IMG/VR virus record: IMGVR_UViG_3300033141_002732
DNA: 64,000 nt
Strand: one strand, 5' to 3'
DNA from: a virus
Lineage: Duplodnaviria > Heunggongvirae > Uroviricota > Caudoviricetes
The notes under the pieces were generated by a model that searched no databases, was not told the origin of the DNA, and saw nothing but the letters and a program-made list of their open reading frames with translations. Position 1 is the stretch's first letter. Each line of letters begins with the position of its first letter. The position numbers and the translations under genes are program-made. Below, piece by piece: positions 10,130 to 60,217 of this stretch.

Positions 10130-10146
10130 AAAATAAACTCCTAATT

Positions 10147-36501: not shown

Positions 36502-36696
36502 AAATATTAGTATGTTTAATGATTCTTTTTGTACTTTTACCATTTTTTAATAAATATTTACCAAAATGGTTTTGTTATAAAATGGTTGGCATTTACAACC
36601 AAATGAAATAAAATTTGATGGTTGTTATGATATTTGTTTTAGATGTAATAAGAAAGTTTTACAAGATAGTTAAGGAAATTGGTTTGAGGGAAGTAA

Positions 36697-37542: not shown

Positions 37543-37544
37543 AA

Positions 37545-40590: not shown

Positions 40591-40607
40591 AAAGGAGATA
40601 TAGAATT

Positions 40608-42112: not shown

Positions 42113-42325
42113 AGTGAATTAAAGTGAGGTGAAAAATTTGAAAGAAATAAAATTTTTATTAAAACATTTATATACAACAGCATTAGTTTCTTCATGATGG
42201 TTATATGTATATATTCCTAATAATTATTCTTTATCTTTATCAACAATTTTTAGTGTAATTACTATTATTTTAGCATGTTGGTATTTAGTTTATCATTGGG
42301 ATGATTGTTAGAAAGGATTTTTGAT

Positions 42326-42568
42326 ATGATGAGAAAAAATGGGTTATTAGATTTTGTTATGGGAGTATTATATGCTACTATATTATGGGCACATTTTACT
42401 TTTAAATTGGAGTGGTTGCTTCCTTTTATTTTAATTAGTACTATTGCTACAGTAATTATGTTTGTAGTAAGATCATTTTTACAAAAGGAAAAAAGAAATC
42501 ATAATAAAACAAATAAAAAAAGTTCTTTAGAAGAAGTAACTAATGTAAAAATAGGACCTTTAGGATAG
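42326..42568 (+). CDS. small membrane protein
   Basis: Two TM helices; start moved to the ATG at 42326 (the ORF-track start is TTG). Confidence 0.35.
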   Translation: MMRKNGLLDFVMGVLYATILWAHFTFKLEWLLPFILISTIATVIMFVVRSFLQKEKRNHNKTNKKSSLEEVTNVKIGPLG

Positions 42569-42582
42569 AAGGGAGTTTTCTA

Positions 42583-43740: not shown

Positions 43741-43772
43741 TTCTTTGTAATTAAAAATAAGGATATTTAATT

Positions 43773-46934: not shown

Positions 46935-46936
46935 AT

Positions 46937-48019
46937 ATGTATAATATATTAATTTCAACTTCTGGTGCTGGAAATGCTAATAATTTGGTTAGAAGTTTAC
47001 AATCATCTAATGATCTTAATATGATTACAAATCTTAATATAATTGGTATAAATAGTTCTGAATATGAATTAAGTAAATCAATAGCGCATAAAAAATATTT
47101 AGTTCCAAAATTTAATAATCCCGAATATGTGAATTCTATTTTAGAAATATTTAATCGAGAAAAAATAGATTTTTTTATACCAAATCATGAATTTGAAATT
47201 GAAGCTTTATATAGATATGATAATCAAGAGATTTTAGATAAATGTTTTTTACCATCTTTTGAAACAGTTGTATTATGTAATAATAAATATAATTTAAATA
47301 AGAAATTACATGAAGAAGGAATTTATGTTCCAGTATCTATAAATATACAAAAATGGTTTGATATAGATTCTTATTTTGATGAACAACTAGTTGAAAAACC
47401 TGCTTGGTGTAGATTAATTAGAGGTGCTGGTTCAGCAGGTGCAACTCTAGTTTATGATAAAGAACATGCTAAATCATGGATTGAGTATTGGATAAGTCAT
47501 AAGGGAGCAGAAATTGATCAATTTATGTTAAGTGAATATTTGCCATTTGAAGATTATCACTTTTTTAGTCTTTGGAAAGATGGAAATATGATAATTGGTA
47601 AATATATTGAAAGATTAGCTTATGTATGTTCTAAATATACTTTAACAGGAACATCTTCTTCACCATCTGTTTGTAAATTAGATAATGATCCAGTAATTAA
47701 AGCGATATGTGAAGAAGCAGTTAAATGTATTGATCCAAATGCAAATGGTTTATTTGGAATAGATTTAAAATGTGATTCTCGACATTCACCATGTATAACA
47801 GAAATTAATATAGGAAGGTTTCCAAGAATTAATCCAATTTTTAGTATGGTTGGAAATAATATAGCAGAACTATTTGTAAAAATTGGATTAGGATTAGAAG
47901 AATATGAAATAGATGAAAAACTTGATGATGATATTTATTATATGTTTAGAGATTTTGATACTGAACCAGTAATAATACATGCAAAAGATTTAAAAAATAA
48001 ATATACTAATTTAAGTTAG
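46937..48019 (+). CDS. ATP-grasp ligase
   Basis: 360-aa ORF with 'ITEINIGRFP' resembling the ATP-grasp C-terminal 'E.N.R' motif and 'DQFMLSEYLP...EDYHF' central-domain-like segments. Confidence 0.45.
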   Translation: MYNILISTSGAGNANNLVRSLQSSNDLNMITNLNIIGINSSEYELSKSIAHKKYLVPKFNNPEYVNSILEIFNREKIDFFIPNHEFEIEALYRYDNQEILDKCFLPSFETVVLCNNKYNLNKKLHEEGIYVPVSINIQKWFDIDSYFDEQLVEKPAWCRLIRGAGSAGATLVYDKEHAKSWIEYWISHKGAEIDQFMLSEYLPFEDYHFFSLWKDGNMIIGKYIERLAYVCSKYTLTGTSSSPSVCKLDNDPVIKAICEEAVKCIDPNANGLFGIDLKCDSRHSPCITEINIGRFPRINPIFSMVGNNIAELFVKIGLGLEEYEIDEKLDDDIYYMFRDFDTEPVIIHAKDLKNKYTNLS

Positions 48020-48062
48020 CAATTTTATAATGTTATTATAAAATTCAGGAGGAGTTATTTTT

Positions 48063-48962
48063 ATGGTTCGTATATTTGGTACCAGATATATTTTAAAACA
48101 TTTAAATAGTTGTATAGTTCATAATAAATCTTTTTCTACTATTAGATTTGGTGATGCTTGTTTATTTATATTATCTTCAACTTTTTGTAGACAATTTGAA
48201 AAGGGAAAAGGTAAAATTTCAAATAAAATTTTTGATGGATTGAATATTCCTCCAAATAAAAGATTAGAAATAGTTCAAGATTTGGTTAAATATGCTAATC
48301 AAGCAGATTATGTTGATGCACAAAGTGCTGTACTAGTTGAGATTCCAAAATTTCTTCCTATTATGGAAGAATTTATAAAAAGTGGAAATACTAATTTTGG
48401 TCAAGTTTGGGAAAGATTATGTTTAAAAACTAAGGGACAAGGAAGAGGTGTAGGAAATGTAATGAGTAGATGGAGAGAAATTTATAAAGAATCTGGAATA
48501 ACAAATAATTCATTTTGTAGTCCTCATCTTCATTCATTTTCTATAATTGATGGTGAATATAATTTATTTGATATAATGAAAAATAGGAATATTTTTTGTA
48601 TAAGTAATAATATTGAAGTTTGTGATAGATTACAAAAAAAGAGTGGTGCTAAGAATATAGATTATTTTAGAGTTGTGAGGAGAGGATCTAAAAAACACTA
48701 TCCATTATATTATCAAAACGTAATGGATATAATATCTAAAAAAGCTATTAAATATGATCTATTCTTAATTGGAGCTGGATTATTAGGAAAGATATATTGT
48801 GGTTATGTAAAAGAATGTGGTGGTAGATCATTCGATGCTGGAAGGTTATTTGATGTATGGAAAGGTAAAAATATTAGATCTATTCCAGCTAGATTTTTAG
48901 TGATGAATAAACAAAAAATGCTTTGTGAAAGAAAGAAAAATAAAAATGGGAGAGTATGGTAA
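48063..48962 (+). CDS. paralog family A member 4
   Basis: 'KSFSTIRFGDAC', 'LFLIGAGLLGKIYCGYVKECGGRSFDAGRLFDVWKG'. Shares a near-identical 53-nt DNA stretch with member 3. Confidence 0.45.
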   Translation: MVRIFGTRYILKHLNSCIVHNKSFSTIRFGDACLFILSSTFCRQFEKGKGKISNKIFDGLNIPPNKRLEIVQDLVKYANQADYVDAQSAVLVEIPKFLPIMEEFIKSGNTNFGQVWERLCLKTKGQGRGVGNVMSRWREIYKESGITNNSFCSPHLHSFSIIDGEYNLFDIMKNRNIFCISNNIEVCDRLQKKSGAKNIDYFRVVRRGSKKHYPLYYQNVMDIISKKAIKYDLFLIGAGLLGKIYCGYVKECGGRSFDAGRLFDVWKGKNIRSIPARFLVMNKQKMLCERKKNKNGRVW

Positions 48963-49162
48963 AAATGGAGAATATAACTGAGAAAGATAAGAAACAAAAA
49001 GAAATAACTGAGAATATAAAAAGATATGTAAAAAATTTAAATTCATTAATTCTTGAAGCTTCAATGAATGACTTAAATGTTTTTTTAACATTATTATTTA
49101 GTAAAAATAATGAAAATATGTATCAACAATTATTAATTGAATATATAGAAAAAACAGGATAG
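48956..49162 (+). CDS. small hypothetical protein
   Basis: 68 aa. Confidence 0.3.
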   Translation: MVKMENITEKDKKQKEITENIKRYVKNLNSLILEASMNDLNVFLTLLFSKNNENMYQQLLIEYIEKTG

Positions 49163-49177
49163 AAAGGTATTTGAAAA

Positions 49178-49480
49178 ATGAAAGGAGCAAATGAAAAATT
49201 CTTTGATAGCAAGAGTGTAAAAAGGAGATTAGAAATACAAAAATCTTCTAAAAAGAATAAAAGTATGTTAGAAATTTTAGAAACTGAAAATGAACAACGA
49301 TATTTAGAGAAAGAAGTTGCTGATAAATTAAGAATAAAAATTAAAGAAATAAATGAAATATTAAAAGAATGTGATAATTTACAAATAGACGTTGATATAA
49401 ATTATAATAATCTTCCAAGTAGAATATATATAAATAATATTAGAAAGATAATAAACTTAGTTGAAGGAGAAATTAAATGA
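49178..49480 (+). CDS. small hypothetical protein
   Basis: 100 aa with SD 'aaaggtatttgaaaaatg'. Confidence 0.3.
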   Translation: MKGANEKFFDSKSVKRRLEIQKSSKKNKSMLEILETENEQRYLEKEVADKLRIKIKEINEILKECDNLQIDVDINYNNLPSRIYINNIRKIINLVEGEIK

Positions 49481-50400
49481 ATATAGTAATAACAGGTGGT
49501 GCTGGTTTTATTGGTTCACATTTAGCAGATAGATTAATAGAATCTAGTTATTTAAATAAAGTTTTTATATTAGATAATTTAATTACAGGAAGAATGGATA
49601 ATGTAAATCCAGAAGCAATTTTTTATAATATAGATATTTCAGATACTGAAAAAGTTGAAGAATTTTTTAGGGGAAAGAAAATTGATATTGTAATTCATGC
49701 AGCCGCTACTGGAGCTGATCCAAATAATTGGAAAATGGATACAATGTCAAATGTTTTAGGAACTGTTAATATAGTTAAACAATCTTTATTGTGTAGAATA
49801 GAAAGATTAATTTATTTTCAAACTTCTCTTTGTTATGGAACTCCTCAAACAAACCCAATAACTTTAGATCATCCAATAAATCCTACTAATAGTTATTCAA
49901 TAACAAAAACAGCAGCTGAAAGATATATTGCAATGAGTGGACTTAATTTTATATCTTTTAGATTAGCTAATTGTTATGGACCTAGAAATTTAGCTGGTGC
50001 TGTTCCAACTTTTTATCATAGGTTAAGTCAAGGACAATCATGTTTTGTATATAATACTCGAAGAGATTTTGTATATATTGAAGATTTGGTTAACATTGTT
50101 ATGAGAGCTGTTTGTGGTTATGGAGAAAAAGGATATTATCATATTTCTACTGGAAAAGATTATCCCATATTAGATATATATAATATTGTTGCAAATCAAC
50201 TTGGAATTGATACAAAACCTGAAATAAAACCAATGATGAAAGAAGATGTTGAAAGTATATTATTAGATCCATCAGTTACTAAAAAAGTTTTTGAAGTGAT
50301 TCCAAGAACTCTCTTAGATTATGGAATTAGAAAAGCAATTAATTGGTATAAAGAGCATGGTATTACTGAAACATATACTCATTTACCAAAGGAGAAATAA
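49477..50400 (+). CDS. NAD-dependent epimerase/dehydratase (dTDP-/UDP-sugar 4,6-dehydratase or epimerase-like)
   Basis: 'MNIVITGGAGFIGSHLADRL', 'YSITKTAAE' (YxxxK). Confidence 0.7.
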   Translation: MNIVITGGAGFIGSHLADRLIESSYLNKVFILDNLITGRMDNVNPEAIFYNIDISDTEKVEEFFRGKKIDIVIHAAATGADPNNWKMDTMSNVLGTVNIVKQSLLCRIERLIYFQTSLCYGTPQTNPITLDHPINPTNSYSITKTAAERYIAMSGLNFISFRLANCYGPRNLAGAVPTFYHRLSQGQSCFVYNTRRDFVYIEDLVNIVMRAVCGYGEKGYYHISTGKDYPILDIYNIVANQLGIDTKPEIKPMMKEDVESILLDPSVTKKVFEVIPRTLLDYGIRKAINWYKEHGITETYTHLPKEK

Positions 50401-50402
50401 AA

Positions 50403-51089
50403 TTGTTATTTACTAAAGATTATATAAATATAGTAGATGGAATATATGATTTTATTGATAAAACAGATGATTATATTGATAATTATGAAGAAATATCAAA
50501 AGATTGGGCTCAATCTCATGTAGATAATAAATCTTTTGTAAGTTTAGAAACTCAAGCAATATTTAATTGTTGTGACCTTTTAGTTCAAAATTATAGACCT
50601 GAAAATGTATTAGATATAGGTTGTGGTTTTGGATATGTCATTAATAATCTTAAATGTAAAAATAAATTTGGAGTTGATATTTCTTTAAATCAATTAAAAT
50701 ATGTAGATTATAATGTAACTAAAATAAGATGTTATGCTAAAGATATTCCATTAAATAATGAATATTTCGATATGATTATTTGTACTGATTTATTTGAGCA
50801 TGTTCTAGAACCTTATATGTTAGTTCTTGAAATTGACAGATTATTAAAGAAAGATGGTATTTTATTATTTGCATGTCCTTGGCAACAAGATTTATCTGTA
50901 TATGAGTCAGAAGAATACAAAGAAAATTTTAAGAATTATAAATATTTACATTTAAGATCTGTAAATGAAAGTGATATAAAATATTTTAAATTTCATTTTA
51001 CTGAAGTTGCATCTACTATGATTACAGTAGCAATGAAAGATATGATGTTTGAACCTTATCCAATAAAATTTATTCAGTTTATAAAATGA
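50403..51089 (+). CDS. class I SAM-dependent methyltransferase (TTG start)
   Basis: Motif I 'VLDIGCGFGY'; 'MIICTDLFEH'; strong SD 'aaaggagaaataaaattg'. Confidence 0.55.
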   Translation: MLFTKDYINIVDGIYDFIDKTDDYIDNYEEISKDWAQSHVDNKSFVSLETQAIFNCCDLLVQNYRPENVLDIGCGFGYVINNLKCKNKFGVDISLNQLKYVDYNVTKIRCYAKDIPLNNEYFDMIICTDLFEHVLEPYMLVLEIDRLLKKDGILLFACPWQQDLSVYESEEYKENFKNYKYLHLRSVNESDIKYFKFHFTEVASTMITVAMKDMMFEPYPIKFIQFIK

Positions 51090-51249
51090 TAGATATAAAA
51101 AAATTAGAAAAACATGTAAAATTATGTAAAAGAAATTTGAACTCAAAAAGAGTAATTTGTTGTGCTTCTTGTCCATTTGAAGATATTATTATTAAATATT
51201 ATCCAGATTTAAAAGAAAAATTCTATAACAAAAGAGAGGAATTAAAAAA

Positions 51250-52497
51250 ATGAATATATCTTATAAATATAAAAATAAGATTTTTAATAACATAAGAGAT
51301 ATTATTGAAAATAATCGATTATATCCAGATTTTCATTTCTTTCAAGAAGAGTTTATTCCATTTCAAGGATTTATGTCTGGAAGAACTTTTTTTGAAGGAG
51401 TGTCTATACATTCGGATATTAAATTTGATGTATTAGATCAAAGACAAGAAGAATTTAATTTTGATTTTTTTGTTACTTGTATTAATAAATATCTTCGTAA
51501 TCATGATTATAAATCTTTAAAGAATCCAATTTCTGCTGTGTCTGGTGGAGTTGATTCTTCTACTATTGCATTAACATTAAAACCATCAACAATATATTCT
51601 GGGTATTATGAAGGAGATGATTTTTTTAGTGAACTTCCATATTCTAGTTTAGTAGCGTCTGCAATTGATGCTAAACATTATAAATTTAAATTAGACGAAG
51701 ATGATTTTATTAACAATTTATCTGATTATTTTGAGGTTATAGGAAATCCAATTGCTGGTATGGGTGGAGTAATGGAATTTACTTTAATTAAGAAGATTCT
51801 TAAAGAAGTAGATACTGATGTAATATTATTTGGAAATGGTGGTGATGAAATATTTTTGGGATATTACTTTAATTATTTTGTAAAAGAATTTTATGAATAT
51901 GGTCAACAAAAACCACTATACATGCCAAATTTTTATCCACAGAAAAAGTCGATTACTAATAATGTTATAGATTTTATGATTCTTTCTTCTCTCAATAGAG
52001 GATCAGTTGATTTTATGTATACTGATTTTGTTTATTCAAAATTACTTCCACAATTAGAGAAAATGAACTCAATTCTTGAAAAGATTTTATATGTTAATAT
52101 TAATTATACTTTACCGTCATTACTACATCCATATAATCAATATTCTCATGAATTTGGAATTAAATGTTTGAATCCATTGTCTAATGAAGATTTTATAAAA
52201 AACTCACTATATCTTAATACTCCAATTTCTGAAGTTCCAAAGAAAAGATTGAGAGATATAAATCCAATTCTACCAGATGAAATTAAATATAATTTTGTTA
52301 AAAGAGGTTTTCCAATGCCAATTAAGAATTGGACTAAATTGAGTAAATTAATAGAAAAATATTATCATAGATTTTTTGATAGAAAAGAAGTTAAAATTAT
52401 AAAACTTCCTTATAATGGAATAGATAGATTCGCTTGGGGTGTATTTCAAGTGGAATGGTTTTTAGAACATTATTTTGATAATAATTTTAAGGGATAA
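51250..52497 (+). CDS. PP-loop amidotransferase (asparagine synthase-like / WbpG-type N-acetyl sugar amidotransferase)
   Basis: PP-loop 'SAVSGGVDSSTIAL'. Confidence 0.5.
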   Translation: MNISYKYKNKIFNNIRDIIENNRLYPDFHFFQEEFIPFQGFMSGRTFFEGVSIHSDIKFDVLDQRQEEFNFDFFVTCINKYLRNHDYKSLKNPISAVSGGVDSSTIALTLKPSTIYSGYYEGDDFFSELPYSSLVASAIDAKHYKFKLDEDDFINNLSDYFEVIGNPIAGMGGVMEFTLIKKILKEVDTDVILFGNGGDEIFLGYYFNYFVKEFYEYGQQKPLYMPNFYPQKKSITNNVIDFMILSSLNRGSVDFMYTDFVYSKLLPQLEKMNSILEKILYVNINYTLPSLLHPYNQYSHEFGIKCLNPLSNEDFIKNSLYLNTPISEVPKKRLRDINPILPDEIKYNFVKRGFPMPIKNWTKLSKLIEKYYHRFFDRKEVKIIKLPYNGIDRFAWGVFQVEWFLEHYFDNNFKG

Positions 52498-52500
52498 AAA

Positions 52501-53262
52501 ATGAAAGTAATAGATTTTCATATACATATAGGTAAAACAGAAAAAACTAGGTTTTATTGTACTTTTGATAATCTTCAAAATAAAATTTCAAGTGGAGAAA
52601 TTGATAAAGCTGTAATTTTTCCGAATGTATCAAGTATAATTAAAGATAGTGAACTAAATAGTAAATTTTTTCATGAAACAGATAATTATTTTGATATGAT
52701 TTCTTCAAATATATATCTTTTTCTTCTTGTAGATCCTAATGATAAAGAAACTTTAAATCAAATTATTAATAATCAAAATGTTATTAATGGAGTTAAATTT
52801 CATCCAAGTATTACAAGAGTAACTGCTGATAGTAGTAGAATGGATCCATTTTGGGAAGTATGTAAAATTCATCATTATCCAGTAATTGTTCATTGTGGGA
52901 GAGATGCAATTAGTAATATAATATATTTAATTACAGCTGCAAGAAAACATAAAGATGTAAACTTTATTGGAGCACATCTTGGAGGAAATGCTACAGATAT
53001 TATAGATAAATCATTATCTATTTTGAAACAAGAAAAAAATTTAGATAATTTATATTTAGATACTTCTTCTGGAAGATTTCCAGAATTAATAAAAACTGCA
53101 GTTGAATCAATAGGAGCAGAAAGAATAATTTTTGGTTCTGATATTCCTTATGCTGATTTAAAAATTAGTAAATTATGTGTAGAGTTTGCTAATATAAAAG
53201 ATAGTGAAAAGGAGTTGATTTTTTATAAAAATGCTGAAATATTATTGGAAAACACTAATTAG
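52501..53262 (+). CDS. metal-dependent amidohydrolase (TIM barrel)
   Basis: 'MKVIDFHIHIG' HxH at N-terminus; 'VIVHCG', 'GAHLGG', 'FGSDIPY' in amidohydrolase_2-like order. Confidence 0.5.
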   Translation: MKVIDFHIHIGKTEKTRFYCTFDNLQNKISSGEIDKAVIFPNVSSIIKDSELNSKFFHETDNYFDMISSNIYLFLLVDPNDKETLNQIINNQNVINGVKFHPSITRVTADSSRMDPFWEVCKIHHYPVIVHCGRDAISNIIYLITAARKHKDVNFIGAHLGGNATDIIDKSLSILKQEKNLDNLYLDTSSGRFPELIKTAVESIGAERIIFGSDIPYADLKISKLCVEFANIKDSEKELIFYKNAEILLENTN

Positions 53263-53812
53263 TTTAATTCGTGGGCTTATATATGGAAAGCAGTTATGTT
53301 TTATTGGAACAAACGTAAAATTGGGAAAGAATGTTAGAATAAGTTATTTGGTTTCAATAGAAGATAATTGTCAAATTGGTAATAATACTTTTATTGGATA
53401 TTGTTGTATATTAAGACCTAATGTTAAAATTGGAAATGATTGTTCTTTTGGTCATTTAACTGTTATTGAGAAAAATGTTATAATTAAAAATCGAGTTTCT
53501 TTTCATGCTCAATGTCATATAACAGAAGGAACATATGTTGAAGATAATGTTTTTGTTGCGCCAATGTTTATGGGAACTAATACAAAAATAATAGATCATG
53601 GAAGAAATTTAAATCCTCCTATTGAAGGTCCTATTATTAGAAGAGCCGTAAGAATAGCCTCTAATGTAAAATTACTTCCTGGAGTTGAAATAGGAGAGAA
53701 TGCTTTAATTGGAATCGGTTCTGTAGTTACTAAAGATGTTCCTCCAAGAGAAATATGGTTTGGAAATCCAGCTAGAAAATTTGGAAATGTGAAGGAAGAT
53801 GAAATTTTATGA
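53231..53812 (+). CDS. hexapeptide-repeat (LbH) acyltransferase
   Basis: Repeating [LIV]-G-x-x-x-x hexads: 'NVKLGKNVRISY..IEDNCQIGNNTFIGY..LRPNVKIGNDCSFGH'. Confidence 0.55.
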   Translation: MLKYYWKTLISLIRGLIYGKQLCFIGTNVKLGKNVRISYLVSIEDNCQIGNNTFIGYCCILRPNVKIGNDCSFGHLTVIEKNVIIKNRVSFHAQCHITEGTYVEDNVFVAPMFMGTNTKIIDHGRNLNPPIEGPIIRRAVRIASNVKLLPGVEIGENALIGIGSVVTKDVPPREIWFGNPARKFGNVKEDEIL

Positions 53813-54138
53813 GAAAAAATGAAAACTCATGTAAAGGATGTGAATTTTTAGGTAGTGATTCATGTAGAGATATATTTTGGTATGTTTGTAGTCATGATTC
53901 CATACTAGAAGAATATCCAGAAGCATTAATATTAAATCAAGATTTAGAAACTCCAGATTGGTGTCCGTTAAGAATTTCTAATGATGATATTGAAATTGAA
54001 AAAGTGATTAATTACATTAGAAAATTTAAAAATCAAATTAAAAGAGTTTATGGATCTTATAATCATGGAAGTGTTTTCTCACCTGTTTATACTCAAGAAA
54101 ATTCCCCACCTGATCAGATAATTATTGTATTTAAATAA
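53809..54138 (+). CDS. small Cys-containing hypothetical protein
   Basis: 109 aa. Confidence 0.35.
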   Translation: MRKNENSCKGCEFLGSDSCRDIFWYVCSHDSILEEYPEALILNQDLETPDWCPLRISNDDIEIEKVINYIRKFKNQIKRVYGSYNHGSVFSPVYTQENSPPDQIIIVFK

Positions 54139-54341
54139 GAAAGAAAAATATGGAAATATTATGTCCACGTTGTGAGAAAACAATAATATTAAATTGATAT
54201 TGAAGGTGGATTATTTGATCCTAGTTTATTACTAAAGAGATTTAAAACAGACCGAGAAAAATGTGGTTTTAGATGTCAAAATTGTAATTTTTTAGTTAGT
54301 GAATATATAATATGGAGAGTTTGTAAAAGGATATTTATATT

Positions 54342-54815
54342 TTGATTGCATATTTAGAAATTACTACATGGGTTGGAAGCTCAGTTGTTTATGGAGAACA
54401 TTATTACGGAAAAATATTTTTTGGACAAGATTATGTTGATGTATATACAATACTTACTAGAACAGAAGCTATAAAATTAAATAAAGCAGAAGAATGGAGT
54501 GTATTTCCATATGGGATCAGATATAAACAAGGAGAAGAAACTTCTAGATTTACTGATAAAAAGAAATTAATTAAATGTGCTACAGAAGTATTTAATAAAA
54601 AAATTAAACCGAAAGGATTTAATATTTTGTTAGAATGTTCTAAATGTATTATAGACCCATGTTATATGATAATAGGACCCGATAATATAAAAAGTAAAGC
54701 TAATAAATTGTGGAAGCAATTTGAAAAATTTAATGGTTGGGAATGTGATAAAGTTAATGAATCTAAAGTTCAAAAGATTTGTGATGAATGGAGTAAATTA
54801 ATAAATGGAGGATAA
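54342..54815 (+). CDS. hypothetical protein (TTG start)
   Basis: 157 aa. Confidence 0.35.
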   Translation: MIAYLEITTWVGSSVVYGEHYYGKIFFGQDYVDVYTILTRTEAIKLNKAEEWSVFPYGIRYKQGEETSRFTDKKKLIKCATEVFNKKIKPKGFNILLECSKCIIDPCYMIIGPDNIKSKANKLWKQFEKFNGWECDKVNESKVQKICDEWSKLINGG

Positions 54816-54818
54816 ATT

Positions 54819-55004
54819 ATGTGGAATCTTAAATTATTACTGAATTATTGTGAAGATAATCATGTTTATTTAAATGGAAAATGGGTTCCATCTCGTCCTT
54901 TAAATGGACAAAAAAATATATATCCTTTTTGGAAACGAATTAAAGATTCTTGGAAAGTATTTAAATGTAAAGCAGAAGCATTTGAGTGGCCAGAAGGACA
55001 ATAA
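54819..55004 (+). CDS. small hypothetical protein
   Basis: 61 aa. Confidence 0.3.
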   Translation: MWNLKLLLNYCEDNHVYLNGKWVPSRPLNGQKNIYPFWKRIKDSWKVFKCKAEAFEWPEGQ

Positions 55005-55360
55005 TGAAAGAATTACTATTTTCAGTAACTAAGAAAGATTTAGACATCCAATTTTTTTCTGGAAAAGGTGCTGGTGGTCAACATAGGAATAAACATCAGA
55101 ATTGTGTTCGTATGGTTCATAAAGATTCTGGAGTTATTGTTACTGGTCAAAATAGTAGAAGTAGAAAAGCTAATATAAAAGAAGCTTTTAATAATTTAGT
55201 TAAACATCCTAAATTTAAAATATGGTTAAATAGAACAGCACAAGAAATTATAAATAATGAAAATATAAACCAAACAGTTGATTCAATGATGGACCTTAAA
55301 AATCTAAAAATAGAAGTTAAAGATAAAGATGGAAATTGGGTAGAAAAAAATAATATTTAA
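55004..55360 (+). CDS. ArfB-like peptidyl-tRNA hydrolase / RF-1 GGQ-domain protein
   Basis: 'SGKGAGGQHRNKHQNCVRMVHKDSGVIV' matches the class-I release-factor GGQ domain 'sGpGGQhVNkt.SaVrl.H'. The ATG at 55004 overlaps the upstream stop (TAATG). Confidence 0.6.
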   Translation: MKELLFSVTKKDLDIQFFSGKGAGGQHRNKHQNCVRMVHKDSGVIVTGQNSRSRKANIKEAFNNLVKHPKFKIWLNRTAQEIINNENINQTVDSMMDLKNLKIEVKDKDGNWVEKNNI

Positions 55361-55411
55361 AAAGAAAATAATACTAATTATTTAGAACATAATAAAAAAG
55401 GAGAATTGTAA

Positions 55412-56116
55412 ATGAACTATTTAGTTTTTGAAACAATGAAAAAAGTTTTGGAATATGGTGCTTTAGTAATACGAGATGTTGATAATGGTGAAGAACCTTT
55501 TTTATATGCATCTGGTAATTGGGGACCAGGATATGTATCAATTAAAGGTTTAGTTTCTAAACCTCGTCTTTTTGAAAGTATGACATTACAGCTTGCTTCA
55601 AAAATATCATATATTACAGAAATAGATATTGTAGCTGGAAATGTTACTGGAGGAGTTCCACCTTCTGTTTTATTATCCAAACAATTATCTATATTTTATG
55701 GAAAAGATGTACCTCTTCTTTATGTTAGAGATGCTAGAAAAAAAGGTGGTATGAAAGAACTTGTAACTGGACACCGTTCTGAATATAAACGTAAACATGT
55801 TTTAGTTACTGAAGAGTTAGTAAACTTTGCACAAACTACTTGTAATAGTGTGAATATTTTAAGAGAAATGAATTATTATGTTGATTGTTCTTGTTGTATT
55901 TTATTTTATAATAATCCAGTTGCTAATGAAATGTTATATAATAATAAAATAACTATAATATATTTATTTACTTTATCAGAATTACTTTATTGTGCAGAAT
56001 CATGTAATTATTTTTCAAAAAATTTAATTGATAAATATAGAAACTTTTTAGAAGATCCACTAGATTGGCAAAAGAAGAAGGGATTAGAACCAGTGAAAGG
56101 TGGGGGAACTAAATAA
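55412..56116 (+). CDS. orotate phosphoribosyltransferase-like protein
   Basis: 'FLYASGNWGPGYVSIKG' (PyrE hood region 'F.L.SG..SPyY.D') and PRPP-motif-like 'HVLVTEELVNFAQTT'. Confidence 0.5.
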   Translation: MNYLVFETMKKVLEYGALVIRDVDNGEEPFLYASGNWGPGYVSIKGLVSKPRLFESMTLQLASKISYITEIDIVAGNVTGGVPPSVLLSKQLSIFYGKDVPLLYVRDARKKGGMKELVTGHRSEYKRKHVLVTEELVNFAQTTCNSVNILREMNYYVDCSCCILFYNNPVANEMLYNNKITIIYLFTLSELLYCAESCNYFSKNLIDKYRNFLEDPLDWQKKKGLEPVKGGGTK

Positions 56117-56796
56117 TGAAATATCCATTTTTGTTTGTTGCTTTAGATAATCTTTTAGATGATGATCCTGAAATATTATATAAATTATCCGAAGTAGATG
56201 GAAATTTTGGTTTTAAAATAAATTTAGATTATCTTTTATTTATGGGTTTAGATATAATTCCATATTTAAAAGCTTTTAATAGACCATTATTTTTTGATTT
56301 AAAAATGTTTAATGGTAAAAGAACAATGAAAAGATTGGTATATAGATTAGTTGATTCACAAATTGATTTTTTCAATTTTCATATGTTAGCTGATAATCAA
56401 ATTGAATTTATAAATGAAATGGATTTAAAAAATACAAAAGTTTTGGGAGTTACTGTTCTTAGTCATATGAATGAAAGTTATTGTAAATTTATGTTTGGAA
56501 AATCATTAATTGATGTAATTGGTATATTAGAAACTAAAGCTTTGAGTTTAGGATGTCATGGGGTTATTTTACCACCATTCGCTCTTGGAAAAATCAGACA
56601 TGGGAATATTATAAAAGTATCTCCTGGAATTAGGCCAGAATGGTATCAAGATTCAATTCATGTTAATCCTTCTACACCAAAATATGCTGTACAAAATGGT
56701 GCAGATATTTTAGTATGTGGATCTCCAATTATGAAATCCAATGATCCAATTTTAGCTTTGAAAAGAGTGTTAGAAGAAATGGAATGTTCAAAATGA
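56116..56796 (+). CDS. OMP decarboxylase-family protein (PyrF/KGPDC/HPS fold)
   Basis: 'LFVALDNL...FGFKINLDYL...FFDLKMFNGKRTM' parallels 'alD...vKvG...f.DlKlhDIpnTv' of OMPDC. Confidence 0.45.
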   Translation: MKYPFLFVALDNLLDDDPEILYKLSEVDGNFGFKINLDYLLFMGLDIIPYLKAFNRPLFFDLKMFNGKRTMKRLVYRLVDSQIDFFNFHMLADNQIEFINEMDLKNTKVLGVTVLSHMNESYCKFMFGKSLIDVIGILETKALSLGCHGVILPPFALGKIRHGNIIKVSPGIRPEWYQDSIHVNPSTPKYAVQNGADILVCGSPIMKSNDPILALKRVLEEMECSK

Positions 56797-57065
56797 AAAC
56801 TCATTGGTTATTTGGAATAGATCCTAATAAGGAAGTTAAATTTAAAAAAGAAATTGATGAAGAAACTGATTGTAATAAATGTATACATAAAAAGGTTTGT
56901 ATGAGAGATATGCCAAAGAGATGTATAAATTTTGAAATGTCAAATTCAAATGCATTTAGTTGTGGAACTTGTGTACATAATTTTACAAGATTCAGTAGAA
57001 ATTCAATTCCCTGTTTTTATTGTAAAGATTTTTTGGAGGAGTTTAATGGAAAAGAAAAAAATTAA
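56784..57065 (+). CDS. small Cys-rich hypothetical protein
   Basis: 'CNKCIHKKVC...CGTCVHNF...CFYC'. Confidence 0.35.
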   Translation: MFKMKTHWLFGIDPNKEVKFKKEIDEETDCNKCIHKKVCMRDMPKRCINFEMSNSNAFSCGTCVHNFTRFSRNSIPCFYCKDFLEEFNGKEKN

Positions 57066-57819
57066 AACAAATGAAGATTTTAGTAATATGTCTGATGTAT
57101 ATAAAGATTATTTAGAAGAGTTAGTAAATTCTTTTCATAGTTCAACAGGTGCCACTATTTCAAAACTTGAAAACTTTTCTAAATATGTTCCTAGATCATC
57201 AATTTCTAGATTTTTATGTAAATATGAAATATTTAAAAAAATATTAAATATACAGGGATCTATTATAGAAGGTGGAGTATTTTTTGGTGGTGGTTTAATG
57301 ACTTGGGCACAATTAAGTTCAATTCTTGAGCCAGCAAATCATCAAAGGAGAATTATTGGATTTGATACTTTTGCTGGTTTTACTACTGTAACAGGATTTG
57401 ATAAAAGTTCAAAATCTTCACATTTAAATGAAGCTGGATATTATTTTGCTGATTCATATGAAGAATTGCAAAATTCTATTAAAATATATGATATGACTAG
57501 ATATATGAATCATATTAAAAAAATAGAATTAGTAAAAGGTAATGTTGTAGAGACTATACCAAAATATATTAAAGATAATCCTCATTTAATTGTAAGTTTA
57601 TTATATTTAGATTTTGATATTTTTGAACCTACTGCAGCTGCTATTAAAAATTTTCTTCCATTAATGCCAAAGGGTTCAATCATTGCTTTTGATGAATTTG
57701 CACAAGAACTTTGGCCTGGTGAAACTCAAGCAGTTCTTCAAGAATTTCCAGAATTGAATAAATGGAAAATTGAAAGATTTCCATTTGGAACTTCTATTTC
57801 TTATACTATTATTGATTAA
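57047..57819 (+). CDS. TylF/MycF-family sugar O-methyltransferase
   Basis: 'LLYLDFDIFEPTAAAIKNFLPLMPKGSIIAFDEF' matches the macrocin-O-MTase 'D.DlYesT...L..l.p.l..GG.ii.DDY' region; start at 'MEKKKIK' with SD 'ggagg'. Confidence 0.6.
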
Positions 57820-57826
57820 AATTTAT

Positions 57827-57905
57827 TCGCTCGTAGCTCAGTTGGATCTAGAGCAGGAGATTTCTAATCTCCAGGTCGCGGGTTCAAGTCCTGCCGAGCG
57901 AGCCA
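57827..57905 (+). tRNA. tRNA-Arg (anticodon TCT)
   Basis: Cloverleaf: acceptor 'TCGCTCG'/'CGAGCGA', D-arm 'GCTC..GAGC', anticodon stem 'GGAGA/TCTCC' with loop 'TTTCTAA', T-arm 'GCGGG-TTCAAGT-CCTGC', encoded CCA. Confidence 0.8.
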
Positions 57906-57917
57906 CTTTCTAATTAC

Positions 57918-58712
57918 TTGATGGAGATATTTTATATGAAAGCTAGTATTATTATGTGTACTAGAAATAAAAATATATGTTTATCAAATACTTTATATTC
58001 CATTAAAAGACAAATAACTAATATACCATATGAAGTTTGTATTTTAGATGAGAATTCTATAATTGATCCAAAACCAATAATTGATAGAATTTTACCAGAA
58101 GCTAAATATAAAAGATTAGAAAAACAAGTTGGCTTTGGTTTAGCACATAAAATGGTTATGAATTTAGTTTCTGATGATTCTGATATTATAATTATTCAAT
58201 CGAGTGATGTAATGTGGATTCAAAAAGATATCTTACAAAAATTATGTAAAAATGTTTTTAAACATACTATATGTTTACCGGAAGTTCATAATTTAACAGT
58301 TAATAGATATTTTTATAAAAATTTTGAAGAAGATGTTTTGTTGAGAAAAATTAAAAGAAGTAAAACTCAAATTTATTCTGGTAGTAAAAGATCCAATGTA
58401 TGGTTCTTTTTTTTAGGTTCTATTCTTAAAAAAGATTTGGAAGAAATTGGTGGAATGTGGTGTGATGTAAGAATGGATAATCTAATGAGATTTTTAAATT
58501 TTAAAGCAAAATATTTAGATAACTTAAAAGCGATTCACCAAAAACATGAAAGAACAAGTAGAGAGAAATGTGGTCTTGAACATATTTGTGGTACATTATG
58601 TAAAGAAAGACGAAGAAGAAATGACGTTATATTAAAAAGATTATTAAGTAACAAAAAAAAAAAGAATGAGAGAATAAAGAAAATTAGAAAATTAACAAGG
58701 AGGAATAAATAA
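57918..58712 (+). CDS. GT2-like glycosyltransferase with poly-basic C-terminus (tentative)
   Basis: 'ASIIMCTRNKNICLSNTLYSIKRQ...CILDENS' GT2-like N-terminus. Confidence 0.4.
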   Translation: MMEIFYMKASIIMCTRNKNICLSNTLYSIKRQITNIPYEVCILDENSIIDPKPIIDRILPEAKYKRLEKQVGFGLAHKMVMNLVSDDSDIIIIQSSDVMWIQKDILQKLCKNVFKHTICLPEVHNLTVNRYFYKNFEEDVLLRKIKRSKTQIYSGSKRSNVWFFFLGSILKKDLEEIGGMWCDVRMDNLMRFLNFKAKYLDNLKAIHQKHERTSREKCGLEHICGTLCKERRRRNDVILKRLLSNKKKKNERIKKIRKLTRRNK

Positions 58713-58713
58713 A

Positions 58714-58890
58714 ATGGCAGGTGCTACTACTAGAGGAGAAAATGCAGGAAAATTACAAGCTAAAGCTATTATAGAATATATACATTTAATGTATCAAAAT
58801 AATACAGCATTATCATATTTAAATGGTTTAATAAATCTATTAATAGAAGAAAAGAATAGAAGAGAAAAAATAAAGGAAATAAAAATATGA
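58714..58890 (+). CDS. small hypothetical protein (58 aa, not in ORF track)
   Basis: Strong SD 'acaaggaggaataaataaaatg'; stop overlaps the start of the next gene (ATATGA). Confidence 0.35.
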   Translation: MAGATTRGENAGKLQAKAIIEYIHLMYQNNTALSYLNGLINLLIEEKNRREKIKEIKI

Positions 58891-59960
58891 AAATATTTTT
58901 AGTTGTTGGGGCTAGACCAAATTTTATGAAAATAGCTCCGCTAATTCGAGAATTAAAAGGATATCCAAATATTGAATACAAAATAATTCATACGGGACAG
59001 CATTATGATTTTACAATGAGTGAAATATTTTTTAGAAATTTAGATATACCAAAACCTGATATAAATTTAGGAGTTGGATCTTCTAGTCATGCTTTACAAA
59101 CTGCTCAAATAATGTCAAAATTTGAGAGAATATGTTTAGAAGAAGGTCCTGATATTGTTATTGTTGTTGGTGATGTAAATTCTACTTTAGCTTGTTCTTT
59201 AGTAGTATCTAAAATTGGTGGAATTAAGTTAGCTCATATTGAAGCTGGTGAAAGAAGTTTTGATAAAAGTATGCCAGAAGAAACTAATAGAATTGTGGTA
59301 GATCATATTTCTGACTATTTATTTTGTGCGACCCAAAAATCTTATGAAAATTTAAAAAATGAAGGACTTGAAAATAAAGCATTTTTAGTTGGAAATATAA
59401 TAATAGATAATTTGCTTTATTATGAGAAAAAAATTGAACTTATTCGTGATAAAGAACCTCATATTTTACTTACAATACATAGAGAATCTAATACAAATAA
59501 TTTAGAAAATCTTCAAAACATATTAATAGCAGTTTCTAAAATAAAAGATAAATCTGGTGTTAATATAATATTTCCAATTCATCCAAGAACTGCAAAACAA
59601 ATAGAAAAATTTAATTTGTTTCATTATTTACATAATATTGATATTGTAGATCCTATGTCATATTTATCTTTTTTAAAATGTATGAAAAGTGCTTCTCTTG
59701 TATTAACAGATTCTGGTGGTATTCAAGTTGAAACAACAGTTTTAAATATACCATGTTTGACTTTAAGAGATAATACAGAATGGATATTTACTTTATCAGA
59801 AGGTACAAATCAATTAGTTGGAACTGACATAATAAAAATTATTAATAAGTCTCTAAAAATTTTATATTTTCAAGATGTTAATTCTAATTTATCTGAAGAA
59901 ACAAAAAAATTACTAGATGGAAATGTATCTAATAAAATTATAAATATTCTAGTAGAATAG
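58887..59960 (+). CDS. UDP-N-acetylglucosamine 2-epimerase (WecB/NeuC-like)
   Basis: 'MKIFLVVGARPNFMKIAPLIREL...IHTGQHYD' is the canonical family N-terminus; 'VVGDVNSTLA', 'LTDSGGIQVE'. Confidence 0.75.
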   Translation: MKIFLVVGARPNFMKIAPLIRELKGYPNIEYKIIHTGQHYDFTMSEIFFRNLDIPKPDINLGVGSSSHALQTAQIMSKFERICLEEGPDIVIVVGDVNSTLACSLVVSKIGGIKLAHIEAGERSFDKSMPEETNRIVVDHISDYLFCATQKSYENLKNEGLENKAFLVGNIIIDNLLYYEKKIELIRDKEPHILLTIHRESNTNNLENLQNILIAVSKIKDKSGVNIIFPIHPRTAKQIEKFNLFHYLHNIDIVDPMSYLSFLKCMKSASLVLTDSGGIQVETTVLNIPCLTLRDNTEWIFTLSEGTNQLVGTDIIKIINKSLKILYFQDVNSNLSEETKKLLDGNVSNKIINILVE

Positions 59961-59994
59961 ACTATAATGTCCATTCTACTAGAATATTTTTATA
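59943..59994 (+). terminator. rho-independent terminator
   Basis: 17-bp stem 'aatattctagtagaata'/'cattctactagaatatt' (one mismatch), then a T-run, straddling the WecB stop. Confidence 0.6.
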
Positions 59995-60217
59995 TTATAA
60001 AATCTAAACTATTTAAGTTAATCAAAGAAGTTTTATTTTTGTTTGTTATAAAACATTGTTGGTAATCGAACTCTAAAGATATATTCATTCTCACTAAATC
60101 AAATAAAAAATGATTATATTTTAAATTAAATGTTTTATTTAAACTCCTATATTAAAAAAGTTATTCTTTTTATATTATAGAACAAAATAATATACTAAAA
60201 ATGGAGGTTTTTATAAT

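What the first reader, a model, noticed from the sequence alone, without database searches (positions are those of the whole stretch)
55004..57905. Phage-encoded ArfB-like GGQ peptidyl-tRNA hydrolase near a tRNA-Arg(UCU)
A 118-aa protein carries the release-factor GGQ motif ('GKGAGGQHRNK') and looks like a ribosome-rescue factor of the ArfB type. A tRNA-Arg(UCU), which decodes AGA, lies 2.5 kb downstream. Together they suggest the element tunes translation of AT-rich, AGA-rich mRNAs. They could also counteract host defences that stall ribosomes, such as anticodon nucleases or tmRNA depletion.
Basis: partly seen in the sequence, partly recalled or inferred. Interest (0 to 1): 0.55.

Follow-up and report, generated by a model that had tools for sequence, protein, structure and literature searches.

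The report
Phage tail-less GGQ release-factor domain protein
A very AT-rich phage encodes a small protein that is only the catalytic GGQ domain of a bacterial release factor, and it belongs to a family already annotated in phages rather than to the ArfB rescue factors, while the tRNA-Arg 2.5 kb away is a real but ordinary phage tRNA with no demonstrated link to it.

Summary
Both observed objects are real. The ORF at 55004..55360 (+) encodes 118 aa with the motif GKGAGGQHRNK and passes Pfam RF-1 (60 bits against a cutoff of 35). The tRNA-Arg(UCU) at 57827..57905 is called by ARAGORN and by Rfam (63 bits against 29).

The ArfB reading fails. The ArfB model scores 24 bits against a cutoff of 100. 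The ArfB/ICT1-specific helix is missing. The C-terminus is a confidently folded, uncharged module, not a basic tail. Sequence and fold sit closer to RF1, RF2, mtRF1, PrfH and C12orf65.

The protein matches PHROG 3122, "RF-1 domain peptide chain release factor", over its full length. It is 38-41% identical to gp202-type proteins of tRNA-rich mycobacteriophages. Hundreds of metagenomic relatives of 110-130 aa exist. The family hallmark is an RF-type GGQ domain plus a roughly 50-aa C-terminal module with invariant W74 and W112.

No conserved partner gene was found. tRNA or tmRNA genes lie within 10 kb in 22 of 86 loci, but not in most of the closest relatives.

AGA makes up 82% of the window's Arg codons, so the tRNA fits ordinary codon supply.

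Most likely function, inferred only: a phage-supplied, codon-independent peptidyl-tRNA hydrolase that acts on the ribosome. This is a new member of a known but uncharacterised family.

The parts
55004..55360 (+). Gene for the 118-aa stand-alone GGQ (RF-1 domain) protein. The stop codon is included.
   Evidence: ORF list and sequence. Pfam RF-1, 60.3 bits. PHROG 3122 over the full length, E = 3.5e-23. An identical protein, P0001, occurs on JGI contigs of up to 152 kb.
54993..54998 (+). Shine-Dalgarno-like GAAGGA, 5 nt upstream of the ATG.
   Evidence: Read directly from the sequence.
55019..55210 (+). RF-type GGQ catalytic domain, residues 6-69. The GGQ codons are at 55073..55081.
   Evidence: Pfam match covers residues 6-69. 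G24, G25 and Q26 are invariant in 47 and in 19 family members. The AF2 model shows strands at 13-18, 34-39 and 44-48 and a helix from residue 54. The best structural matches are RF1, RF2, mtRF1 and PrfH.
55211..55357 (+). Family-specific C-terminal module, residues 70-118. It comprises helices 69-84 and 88-95 and a hairpin at 104-106/112-114. W74 and W112 are invariant and E104 is nearly invariant. It is not basic.
   Evidence: Alignments A1 and A2. Block-mean pLDDT is 91-97 over residues 71-110 and 78 over residues 111-118. The module alone has no credible sequence match in the PDB: one weak hit to a repeat protein at E = 0.005, none of whose matched stretches passes on its own.
54819..55004 (+). 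61-aa ORF whose stop overlaps the GGQ start codon (TAATG). It is a possible translationally coupled neighbour and is not conserved in relatives.
   Evidence: ORF list and sequence. No Pfam hit. No homologue next to the GGQ gene in the other 85 loci.
57827..57905 (+). tRNA-Arg(UCU), 76 nt plus an encoded CCA. It sits 7 nt after the stop of the TylF-like methyltransferase ORF and 12 nt before the GT2 glycosyltransferase ORF.
   Evidence: ARAGORN. Rfam RF00005, 63.3 bits. GC content is 56% against 24% for the window. The closest phage tRNAs are the tRNA-Arg(tct) genes of Pelagibacter phage Mosig and OM43 phage Melnitz, at 78-79% identity.

Best explanation
The 118-aa protein belongs to a widespread, phage-borne family of minimal release-factor proteins: PHROG 3122, the mycobacteriophage gp202 type annotated "RF-1 domain peptide chain release factor". 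It has two parts. The first is an RF1/RF2-type GGQ domain. The second is a compact, family-specific C-terminal module of about 50 residues with two invariant tryptophans. It lacks the stop-codon-reading domains of RF1 and RF2. It also lacks the basic tail that ArfB inserts into the mRNA channel.

Inferred mechanism. The GGQ loop enters the peptidyl-transferase centre through a vacant A site on the 50S subunit. There it triggers codon-independent hydrolysis of peptidyl-tRNA. This would free ribosomes, or split 50S subunits, that stall during infection. Such stalling could arise on host mRNAs truncated during takeover, or at codons whose tRNAs have been depleted or cleaved. The freed ribosomes would return to the pool that translates phage mRNA. 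Because the protein has no ArfB-like sensor, substrate selection must depend on the C-terminal module, on a non-adjacent partner, or on the 50S context.

The tRNA-Arg(UCU) is a separate, ordinary phage tRNA that decodes the phage's dominant Arg codon, AGA. It is embedded in a glycan-biosynthesis gene array and is not functionally tied to the GGQ gene.

What is shown: family membership, domain content, absence of ArfB features, and the tRNA's authenticity. What is inferred: catalytic activity, substrate and biological role.
For: Family and architecture:
- Pfam RF-1, 60 bits.
- PHROG 3122 matched over residues 2-116, E = 3.5e-23.
- 38-41% identity over 98% of the length to mycobacteriophage proteins annotated as RF-1.
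- 422 close homologues of about 110-130 aa.
- 522 clusters at 50% identity with E <= 1e-10. Most of the 150 best are 95-160 aa and match over nearly the whole profile.
- G24, G25, Q26, H39, N57, A61, W74 and W112 are invariant across members that are 31-54% identical.
- AF2 model with pLDDT 89 and a folded C-terminus.
- RF1, RF2, mtRF1, PrfH and C12orf65 are the top matches by sequence and by fold.

Link to translation:
- 22 of 86 loci have tRNA or tmRNA genes within 10 kb. Some GGQ genes sit inside arrays of 22-25 tRNAs (L023, L033). tmRNA genes lie 0.9-3.9 kb away in L009, L056 and L082.
- The cultured phages that carry the family are mycobacteriophage clusters C, M and V. These carry 21-32 tRNAs, and clusters C and V also carry a tmRNA.
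- RF-1-domain genes in tRNA arrays have been noted in the literature (PMC5966550).
- Cluster M phage Nanosmite has an RtcB-like ligase 5 kb upstream.

Timing: in relatives, the neighbours are replication and nucleotide-metabolism genes. DnaB-like, UvsW-like, ThyX and RNR were identified by eye from the sequences. RecA, dUTPase and SbcC were identified from precomputed Pfam hits. This suggests early or middle expression.

tRNA. AGA is 82% of Arg codons. tRNA-Arg(tct) recurs in phages.
Against: - No biochemical data exist for any member of the family, as far as five literature searches could find.
- In ArfB, the C-terminal extension is required for ribosome binding and hydrolysis (PMC3950681). 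A tail-less protein may therefore be inactive on its own.
- No conserved neighbouring partner was found. The 1207 neighbouring ORFs fall into 974 clusters.
- Fine-scale linkage to tRNAs is weak. Within tRNA-containing loci, the GGQ gene has a mean percentile of 0.41 against about 0.5 for random positions (one-sided p = 0.02). The test is biased in favour of linkage.
- 64 of 86 loci have no tRNA within the DNA held.
- This window has only one tRNA and no tmRNA.
Confidence: 0.55

Rival explanations
1. It is an ArfB/YaeJ-type rescue factor. In that case a basic C-terminal tail would probe the empty mRNA channel of non-stop ribosomes and license GGQ-mediated release.
For: It shares the GGQ motif and a small size of 118 aa, against about 140 aa for ArfB. 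There is a weak ArfB model hit of 24 bits over residues 7-38.
Against: - The ArfB equivalog scores 24 bits against a cutoff of 100.
- The family profile hits ArfB chains at E = 0.1, over the GGQ loop only.
- A 4-residue turn lies between strands 2 and 3, where ArfB and ICT1 have an inserted helix (PMC3950681).
- The C-terminus is folded and uncharged. It lacks the Arg/Lys tail residues that are essential in YaeJ.
Confidence: 0.04
2. It is a host-shutoff or translation-aborting factor. A sensor-less GGQ domain would enter any transiently empty A site and terminate host protein synthesis prematurely. A variant of this idea is that it competes with host RF1 and RF2 at stop codons to change termination efficiency.
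For: It has no stop-codon-reading or stalled-ribosome-sensing element. Its position among early- or middle-type replication genes in relatives is where takeover genes usually lie.
Against: Such a factor would equally abort phage translation. The family co-occurs with translation-supporting genes such as tRNA arrays and tmRNA, not with shutoff nucleases. No toxicity data were found.
Confidence: 0.12
3. It is the releasing component of a phage counter-defence against ribotoxins or anticodon nucleases, analogous to PrfH with RtcB2. It would free ribosomes jammed by cleaved tRNA or rRNA, while phage tRNAs or RNA ligases replace or repair the damaged RNA. The tRNA-Arg(UCU) would then be a nuclease-resistant replacement tRNA.
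For: PrfH is among the best sequence and fold matches. An RtcB-like ligase lies 5 kb from the homologue in phage Nanosmite. tRNA arrays and tmRNA occur near some homologues. The published hypothesis that phage tRNAs counter tRNA-depleting defences supports the idea (PMC10264068; PMC7824862).
Against: - The PrfH model scores 42.5 bits against a cutoff of 167, and the N-terminal damage-sensing domain of PrfH is absent.
- No RtcB, Pth2 or CCA-adding enzyme appeared among the roughly 50 window ORFs scanned.
- Most of the closest relatives have no tRNA nearby.
- The anticodon loop UUUCUAA shows nothing unusual by eye.
Confidence: 0.2
4. It is a non-catalytic GGQ protein, for example a decoy for the host GGQ methyltransferase PrmC or a passive ribosome binder.
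For: A GGQ loop is also the PrmC recognition element (established knowledge). No activity has been shown for any member of the family.
Against: Conservation extends well beyond the GGQ tripeptide. R36, H39, S42/G43 and N57 lie in the RF-type core that contacts the 50S subunit. This fits a ribosome-bound enzyme better than a decoy.
Confidence: 0.05

Closest known systems
Phage stand-alone RF-1 domain proteins (PHROG 3122; for example Mycobacterium phage Catera gp202 and Nanosmite gp140)
   Same: Same length and same architecture. The match is full-length (PHROG E = 3.5e-23; 33-41% identity over 98% of the length). They share the GGQ core and the C-terminal W...E...W module. They are likewise encoded by large phages.
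   Different: The host range, GC content and gene neighbours differ. In cluster C phages the gene lies between the DNA polymerase and the UvsX-like recombinase. Here it lies between small ORFs and a pyrE-like/pyrF gene pair. The mycobacteriophage genomes carry 21-32 tRNAs, whereas this window has one.
Domain 3 (the GGQ domain) of class I release factors RF1, RF2 and mtRF1
   Different: It lacks domains 1, 2 and 4, and with them the PxT or SPF codon-reading elements. The prfA and prfB models score 40-47 bits against cutoffs of 370-423. It therefore cannot read stop codons.
ArfB/YaeJ and mitochondrial ICT1
   Same: All are small GGQ proteins without codon-recognition domains. By inference, all carry out codon-independent hydrolysis on the ribosome.
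   Different: It has no inserted helix between strands 2 and 3, no linker and no basic tail. It falls below the family score cutoff and gives weaker fold matches (PMC3950681).
Mitochondrial MTRFR (C12orf65)
   Same: It has an RF-like GGQ domain followed by a helical C-terminal extension. The family profile aligns over positions 6-105 of 119 (E = 4e-9). It is a precedent for a small GGQ protein that acts on split large subunits rather than through mRNA-channel sensing (title of PDB entry 7a5h).
   Different: MTRFR works with a partner, MTRES1, whereas no conserved partner gene was seen here. The C-terminal module here is a compact helix-plus-hairpin unit with invariant tryptophans and near-zero charge.
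PrfH (with RtcB2)
   Same: It has a GGQ domain of similar sequence and fold. It shares the theme of rescuing damaged ribosomes. An RtcB-like gene lies near one phage homologue.
   Different: It has no N-terminal recognition domain. The TIGR03072 model scores 42.5 bits against 166.65. No RtcB gene was found in this window.

Membership tests
ArfB/YaeJ/ICT1 | Catalytic GGQ motif in an RF-type domain | tested here: met
   GGQ at residues 24-26. Pfam RF-1, 60 bits. The motif is invariant in the family.
ArfB/YaeJ/ICT1 | Score above the curated family model cutoff (NCBIfam NF006718) | tested here: not met
   24 bits against a cutoff of 100, matching residues 7-38 only. The profile hits PDB ArfB chains at E = 0.1.
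ArfB/YaeJ/ICT1 | Inserted helix between strands 2 and 3 of the GGQ domain, in place of the short turn found in RFs (PMC3950681) | tested here: not met
   The model has strands at 34-39 and 44-48 joined by the 4-residue turn KDSG, as in RF1 and RF2.
ArfB/YaeJ/ICT1 | Flexible linker plus basic C-terminal tail with conserved Arg/Lys residues that occupies the mRNA channel (PMC3950681) | tested here: not met
   The C-terminal 50 residues are predicted to be folded, with block-mean pLDDT of 91-97 over residues 71-110 and 78 over the last eight. The net charge of the last 30 residues is -1 here, with a family median of -2.
ArfB/YaeJ/ICT1 | Peptidyl-tRNA hydrolysis on non-stop ribosomes | not testable with these tools
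   This needs biochemistry.
Class I release factors RF1/RF2 | Four-domain architecture with a codon-reading domain 2/4 (PxT or SPF) | tested here: not met
   The protein has only 118 aa. The prfB model scores 47.4 bits against a cutoff of 370 and the prfA model 40 against 423.25. Only the positions corresponding to domain 3 are matched.
Phage stand-alone RF-1 domain proteins (PHROG 3122) | Full-length similarity to the family profile and to annotated members | tested here: met
   Residues 2-116 match profile positions 21-131 of 136, E = 3.5e-23. tblastn covers 98% of the length at 38-41% identity to more than 200 mycobacteriophage genes.
Phage stand-alone RF-1 domain proteins (PHROG 3122) | C-terminal module with invariant W74 and W112 and nearly invariant E104 (a hallmark derived here) | tested here: met
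   Alignment A2 includes Catera gp202 and Nanosmite gp140. Alignment A1 also shows it.
PrfH | Score above the TIGR03072 cutoff, an N-terminal recognition domain, and an adjacent RtcB2 gene | tested here: not met
   42.5 bits against a cutoff of 166.65. There is no N-terminal domain. No RtcB was found among the window ORFs scanned.
MTRFR/C12orf65-type | GGQ domain plus C-terminal extension acting with a dedicated partner on split large subunits | tested here: inconclusive
   The profile aligns over positions 6-105 at E = 4e-9. However, there is no conserved neighbouring partner, and the substrate cannot be tested here.
tRNA-Arg(UCU) | Cloverleaf scoring above the Rfam gathering score, with anticodon UCU | tested here: met
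   63.3 bits against 29, covering model positions 1-71. ARAGORN calls anticodon tct.
tRNA-Arg(UCU) | Arginine identity elements (A20, C35) and aminoacylation by ArgRS | not tested
   The D-loop AGUUGGAUCUA and the anticodon UCU are compatible with A20 and C35 by eye. Charging cannot be tested here.

The most novel reading that the evidence does not exclude
The tail-less GGQ proteins of phages would be a mechanistically distinct, virus-specific class of ribosome rescue or release factor. Their Trp-bearing C-terminal module would replace both the decoding domains of RF1 and RF2 and the mRNA-channel tail of ArfB. It might direct the GGQ loop to 50S-bound peptidyl-tRNA, or to ribosomes jammed by host defences or by host mRNA decay. 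Together with phage tRNAs and tmRNA, these proteins would form a portable viral kit for maintaining translation.
Probability: 0.3. Interest if true: 0.6.

Novelty: new member of a known kind. Interest (0 to 1): 0.3.

Why it matters
If the family is active, phages carry their own minimal peptide-release enzyme. It would select its substrates in a way unlike RF1/RF2, ArfB, ArfA-RF2 or PrfH. That would add a viral branch to ribosome-rescue biology. It would also help explain why tRNA-rich phages carry tmRNA, Pth2 and RF-domain genes. For this window specifically, the practical result is a corrected annotation: the protein is not ArfB, it belongs to an already catalogued phage family, and the nearby tRNA is an ordinary codon-supply tRNA.

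Tried and rejected
1. Conserved partner gene. I clustered 1207 ORFs lying within 4 kb of the GGQ gene in 86 loci. They fell into 974 clusters, and no cluster was present in more than 11 loci. The 61-aa ORF that overlaps the start codon here has no counterpart elsewhere.

2. Fine-scale tRNA linkage. Within tRNA-containing loci, the GGQ gene is only marginally closer to a tRNA than random positions are (mean percentile 0.41, one-sided p = 0.02, with a bias towards linkage). In this window the percentile is 0.27. I therefore rejected this as evidence for pairing.

3. Promoter and terminator scan of 53-59 kb. It found 37 promoter-like sites against 44.5 expected. The terminator-like hits lie inside coding regions. 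The scan was uninformative in DNA of 24% GC.

4. C-terminal half alone against PDB sequences. The only hit below E = 0.01 was a repeat protein at E = 0.005, and none of its matched stretches passed on its own. I treated this as noise.

5. Thermodynamic folding of the tRNA. It gave a non-cloverleaf minimum-free-energy structure (z = -3.1). I relied on the covariance-model alignment instead.

6. Literature searches for functional work on phage RF-1-domain proteins. They returned only annotation-level mentions (PMC5966550).

7. Scan of bacterial and archaeal genomes. Full-length relatives occur mostly on MAG contigs. At least one of these is the same contig as an IMG/VR viral contig (L089 = L075, 144,548 bp). 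Partial hits covering residues 8-67 fall in genomes of cultured bacteria and look like ordinary cellular GGQ-domain genes; this was not checked. The scan gave no clue to the host.

8. Other translation or RNA-repair genes in the window. About 50 ORFs were scanned. None was found, apart from a queuosine-salvage homologue.


Full report
**Observation**

The ORF at 55004..55360 (+) encodes 118 aa: MKELLFSVTKKDLDIQFFSGKGAGGQHRNKHQNCVRMVHKDSGVIVTGQNSRSRKANIKEAFNNLVKHPKFKIWLNRTAQEIINNENINQTVDSMMDLKNLKIEVKDKDGNWVEKNNI. A GAAGGA Shine-Dalgarno-like element lies 5 nt upstream. Homologues begin at the same position, so the ATG at 55004 is preferred over the GTG at 54986.

The protein matches Pfam RF-1 (PF00472) at 60.3 bits against a gathering score of 35, E = 2e-16, over residues 6-69.

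ARAGORN finds one tRNA in the whole window, tRNA-Arg(tct) at 57827..57905. Rfam's tRNA model scores 63.3 bits against 29, with a complete cloverleaf at 57827..57902. An encoded CCA follows. Both objects are therefore real and lie at the stated coordinates.

**Context**

The window has 24% GC and is densely coded.

- The minus-strand left arm carries a UvsX-like recombinase, the ribonucleotide reductase large subunit, a clamp loader and a Dda-like helicase. This is a large tailed phage.
- An identical GGQ protein is on record on four JGI metagenome contigs in the 50-200 kb size class. Two were read (128,683 and 63,823 bp), and the longest on record is 151,964 bp.
- The plus-strand region from 33 to 60 kb is a long gene array for sugar-nucleotide and glycan biosynthesis.
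- The GGQ gene sits inside this array. Directly downstream are a weak PRTase-like gene and an OMP decarboxylase.
- The tRNA is wedged between a TylF-like methyltransferase and a GT2 glycosyltransferase. It lies 7 nt after the first and 12 nt before the second.

**What the protein is**

Every comparison places it nearer to the GGQ domain of RF1 and RF2 than to ArfB.

| Comparison | RF1 / RF2 / mtRF1 | C12orf65 | PrfH | ArfB / YaeJ / ICT1 |
|---|---|---|---|---|
| Single sequence vs PDB | 6e-9 to 1e-5 | 5e-7 | 1e-5 | 0.2-0.3, GGQ loop only |
| 47-member family profile vs PDB | 1e-10 | 4e-9 (positions 6-105) | 3e-6 | 0.1 |
| NCBIfam models (bits / cutoff) | prfB 47/370; prfA 40/423 | not applicable | 42.5/167 | 24/100 |

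An AlphaFold2 model built on the family alignment has mean pLDDT 89.3.

- Strands lie at 13-18, 34-39 and 44-48.
- The GGQ loop has low confidence, as expected for an RF off the ribosome.
- Helices lie at 54-67, 69-84 and 88-95.
- A hairpin lies at 104-106/112-114.

**Why it is not ArfB**

Kogure et al. (PMC3950681) define what sets ArfB, YaeJ and ICT1 apart. These proteins have an inserted helix between strands 2 and 3, where RFs have a short turn. They also have a flexible, basic C-terminal extension whose tail helix lies in the mRNA channel. R118, L119, K122, K129 and R132 in the tail, and R105 in the linker, are required for activity.

Here the connection between strands 2 and 3 is a 4-residue turn (KDSG). 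The C-terminal 50 residues are confidently folded. Their charge is about zero: -1 for the last 30 residues, and a median of -2 across 228 family members.

**The family**

PHROG 3122, "RF-1 domain peptide chain release factor", matches over the full length (residues 2-116, E = 3.5e-23).

A tblastn search against about 50,000 phage records finds 240 hits. Of these, 206 are mycobacteriophages, and 209 cover at least 80% of the query. Identity is 33-41%, and most are annotated "RF-1 peptide chain release factor". They include:

- cluster C phages, for example Catera gp202, which lies between the DNA polymerase and the UvsX-like recombinase;
- Nanosmite, genus Reyvirus, which I take to be cluster M;
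- EniyanLRS, cluster V.

In metagenomes there are 422 close homologues of about 110-130 aa. An exhaustive profile search finds 522 clusters at 50% identity with E <= 1e-10. Most of the 150 best are 95-160 aa and match over nearly the whole profile. IMG/VR holds 393 encoding loci.

Across members that are only 31-54% identical, D12, G24, G25, Q26, H39, N57, A61, W74 and W112 are invariant. G22, N29, R36, S42, G43 and E104 are nearly so. The C-terminal module with its two tryptophans is thus a hallmark of the family. On its own it has no credible match in PDB sequences. More distant members carry the RF1/RF2-like motif RSQ..NK, which is consistent with descent from an RF1/RF2-type domain 3. BFVD also contains other small phage GGQ proteins of 64-164 aa.

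**Genomic associations**

I examined 86 loci: the window, 80 IMG/VR loci, 4 metagenome loci and Catera.

Neighbours are very diverse. The 1207 ORFs fall into 974 clusters, and the commonest neighbour cluster occurs in 11 loci. Recurrent neighbours are replication and nucleotide-metabolism genes. RecA, dUTPase and an SbcC-like gene were identified from precomputed Pfam hits. DnaB-like, UvsW-like, ThyX and RNR genes were identified by eye from the sequences. No partner gene is conserved.

tRNA or tmRNA genes lie within the DNA held (up to 10 kb) in 22 of 86 loci. They lie within 1 kb in 9 loci and within 300 bp in 6. Some GGQ genes are embedded in arrays of 22-25 tRNAs (L023, L033). tmRNA genes occur nearby in L009, L056 and L082/L083.

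A within-locus control shows only a marginal excess of proximity: mean percentile 0.41, one-sided p = 0.02, with a bias in favour of linkage. Most of the closest relatives of the window protein have no tRNA within 10 kb.

At the genome level, the cultured carriers are the tRNA-rich mycobacteriophage clusters:

- cluster C: 31-32 tRNAs plus a tmRNA (PMC9583779, PMC9670876);
- cluster V: 23 tRNAs plus a tmRNA (PMC10586154);
- cluster M: 21 tRNAs (PMC7953290).

Morgado and Vicente (PMC5966550) already reported RF-1-domain genes as core genes of some mycobacterial tRNA arrays and speculated about ribosome rescue. I found no experimental work on any member of the family. A systematic survey of release-factor evolution does not mention phage versions (PMC6514570).

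**The tRNA**

AGA accounts for 564 of 689 Arg codons (82%; 32 per 1000 codons) in 69 non-overlapping ORFs of the window. The tRNA therefore decodes the phage's dominant Arg codon.

Its nearest phage relatives are the tRNA-Arg(tct) genes of Pelagibacter phage Mosig and OM43 phage Melnitz, at 78-79% identity (PMC9004378). tRNA-Arg(tct) also occurs in four of the related loci.

Two general explanations exist for phage tRNAs: codon compensation and resistance to host tRNases (PMC10264068). They cannot be separated here because the host is unknown.

Nothing ties this tRNA to the GGQ gene. Four unrelated genes separate them, no informative transcription signals were found, and 27% of random positions within 10 kb on either side are at least as close to the tRNA.

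**Mechanism (inferred)**

GGQ-mediated hydrolysis by this superfamily takes place in the peptidyl-transferase centre of the ribosome. This is established knowledge for RF1, RF2, ArfB, ICT1 and PrfH. The strict conservation of the GGQ loop and of the RF-type core argues for a ribosome-bound enzyme.

Without decoding domains, release must be codon-independent. Without an ArfB-type tail, the protein cannot sense the mRNA channel in the way ArfB does. It must rely on one of three things:

- the Trp-bearing C-terminal module;
- a partner that is not encoded next to it;
- a substrate such as 50S-bound peptidyl-tRNA. The precedent is MTRFR on split mitoribosomal large subunits (PDB 7a5h, listed).

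The likely benefit to the phage is recycling of ribosomes that stall during infection. The placement among early- or middle-type genes and the recurrent company of tRNA arrays and tmRNA fit this reading but do not prove it.

The rivals, and what would refute each, are listed in the rival explanations: an aborting or shutoff factor, a PrfH-like counter-defence component, and a non-catalytic decoy.

**Verdict**

This is a new member of a known, annotated but uncharacterised phage family, next to an ordinary phage tRNA. Interest is modest and would rise only if the family's mechanism proved distinct.

Noticed in passing
window 25419..26480 (+): A 353-aa ORF matches Pfam Volactin (PF25216) at 224 bits over the whole model. 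This is an actin-family homologue, known to me as an archaeal actin, encoded by a phage.
   Followed up: no
window about 33000..60000 (+): A co-directional array of about 27 kb encodes sugar-nucleotide and glycan biosynthesis genes. It includes GT1 and GT2 glycosyltransferases, three NAD-dependent epimerases/dehydratases, a DegT aminotransferase, an enolase-superfamily protein, an ATP-grasp protein, an asparagine-synthase-like protein, a hexapeptide acyltransferase, a TylF O-methyltransferase and a UDP-GlcNAc 2-epimerase. A GT9 glycosyltransferase lies separately upstream at 27343..28620. The array is unusually large for a phage of 130-150 kb.
   Followed up: partly
window 55412..56796 (+): Directly downstream of the GGQ gene lie a weak phosphoribosyltransferase-like ORF (21.5 bits, below the cutoff) and an OMP decarboxylase (68.5 bits). 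They may form a phage pyrE/pyrF pair for pyrimidine synthesis.
   Followed up: partly
window 6812..8454 (-): Three genes sit next to the ribonucleotide reductase gene: a queuosine-salvage homologue (PF10343, 71 bits), a rubrerythrin-like ORF, and a LigD 3'-phosphoesterase-domain ORF (59 bits). The first could bear on tRNA or DNA 7-deazaguanine chemistry.
   Followed up: no
L001-L004 (GGQ gene at 10001..10357) and L085 (Catera, 8010..9436): In several uncultured large phages, the GGQ gene lies between an SbcC-like gene and RecA. In cluster C mycobacteriophages, it lies between the DNA polymerase and the UvsX/RecA-like recombinase. This RF-domain-to-RecA gene order recurs across very distant hosts. 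It is not kept in the window.
   Followed up: partly
L009 14239..14603; L056 11211..11620; L082 14134..14510: ARAGORN predicts tmRNA genes 0.9-3.9 kb downstream of GGQ-gene homologues. One of them is permuted and has the tag ANDYDLALAA.
   Followed up: partly
L079, about 1.8 kb downstream of the GGQ homologue (6844..7176): ARAGORN calls a tRNA with anticodon cta, labelled Pyl. This is a potential amber-suppressor tRNA and hints at stop-codon recoding in that phage.
   Followed up: no
L117 1..899 (Mycobacterium phage Nanosmite gene 123): An RtcB-like RNA ligase lies about 5 kb upstream of the RF-1-domain gene (gene 140), with a DprA-like gene and a metallophosphoesterase between them. This is reminiscent of the PrfH-RtcB2 pairing.
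   Followed up: no
window 54819..55004 (+): A 61-aa ORF has a stop codon that overlaps the GGQ start codon (TAATG). It has no family match and no counterpart next to GGQ genes elsewhere.
   Followed up: yes
window 4178..5056 (-) and 28801..29424 (+): Two homing-endonuclease-like ORFs are present. One has a NUMOD3 motif (26 bits) and the other an HNH domain (22 bits).
   Followed up: no
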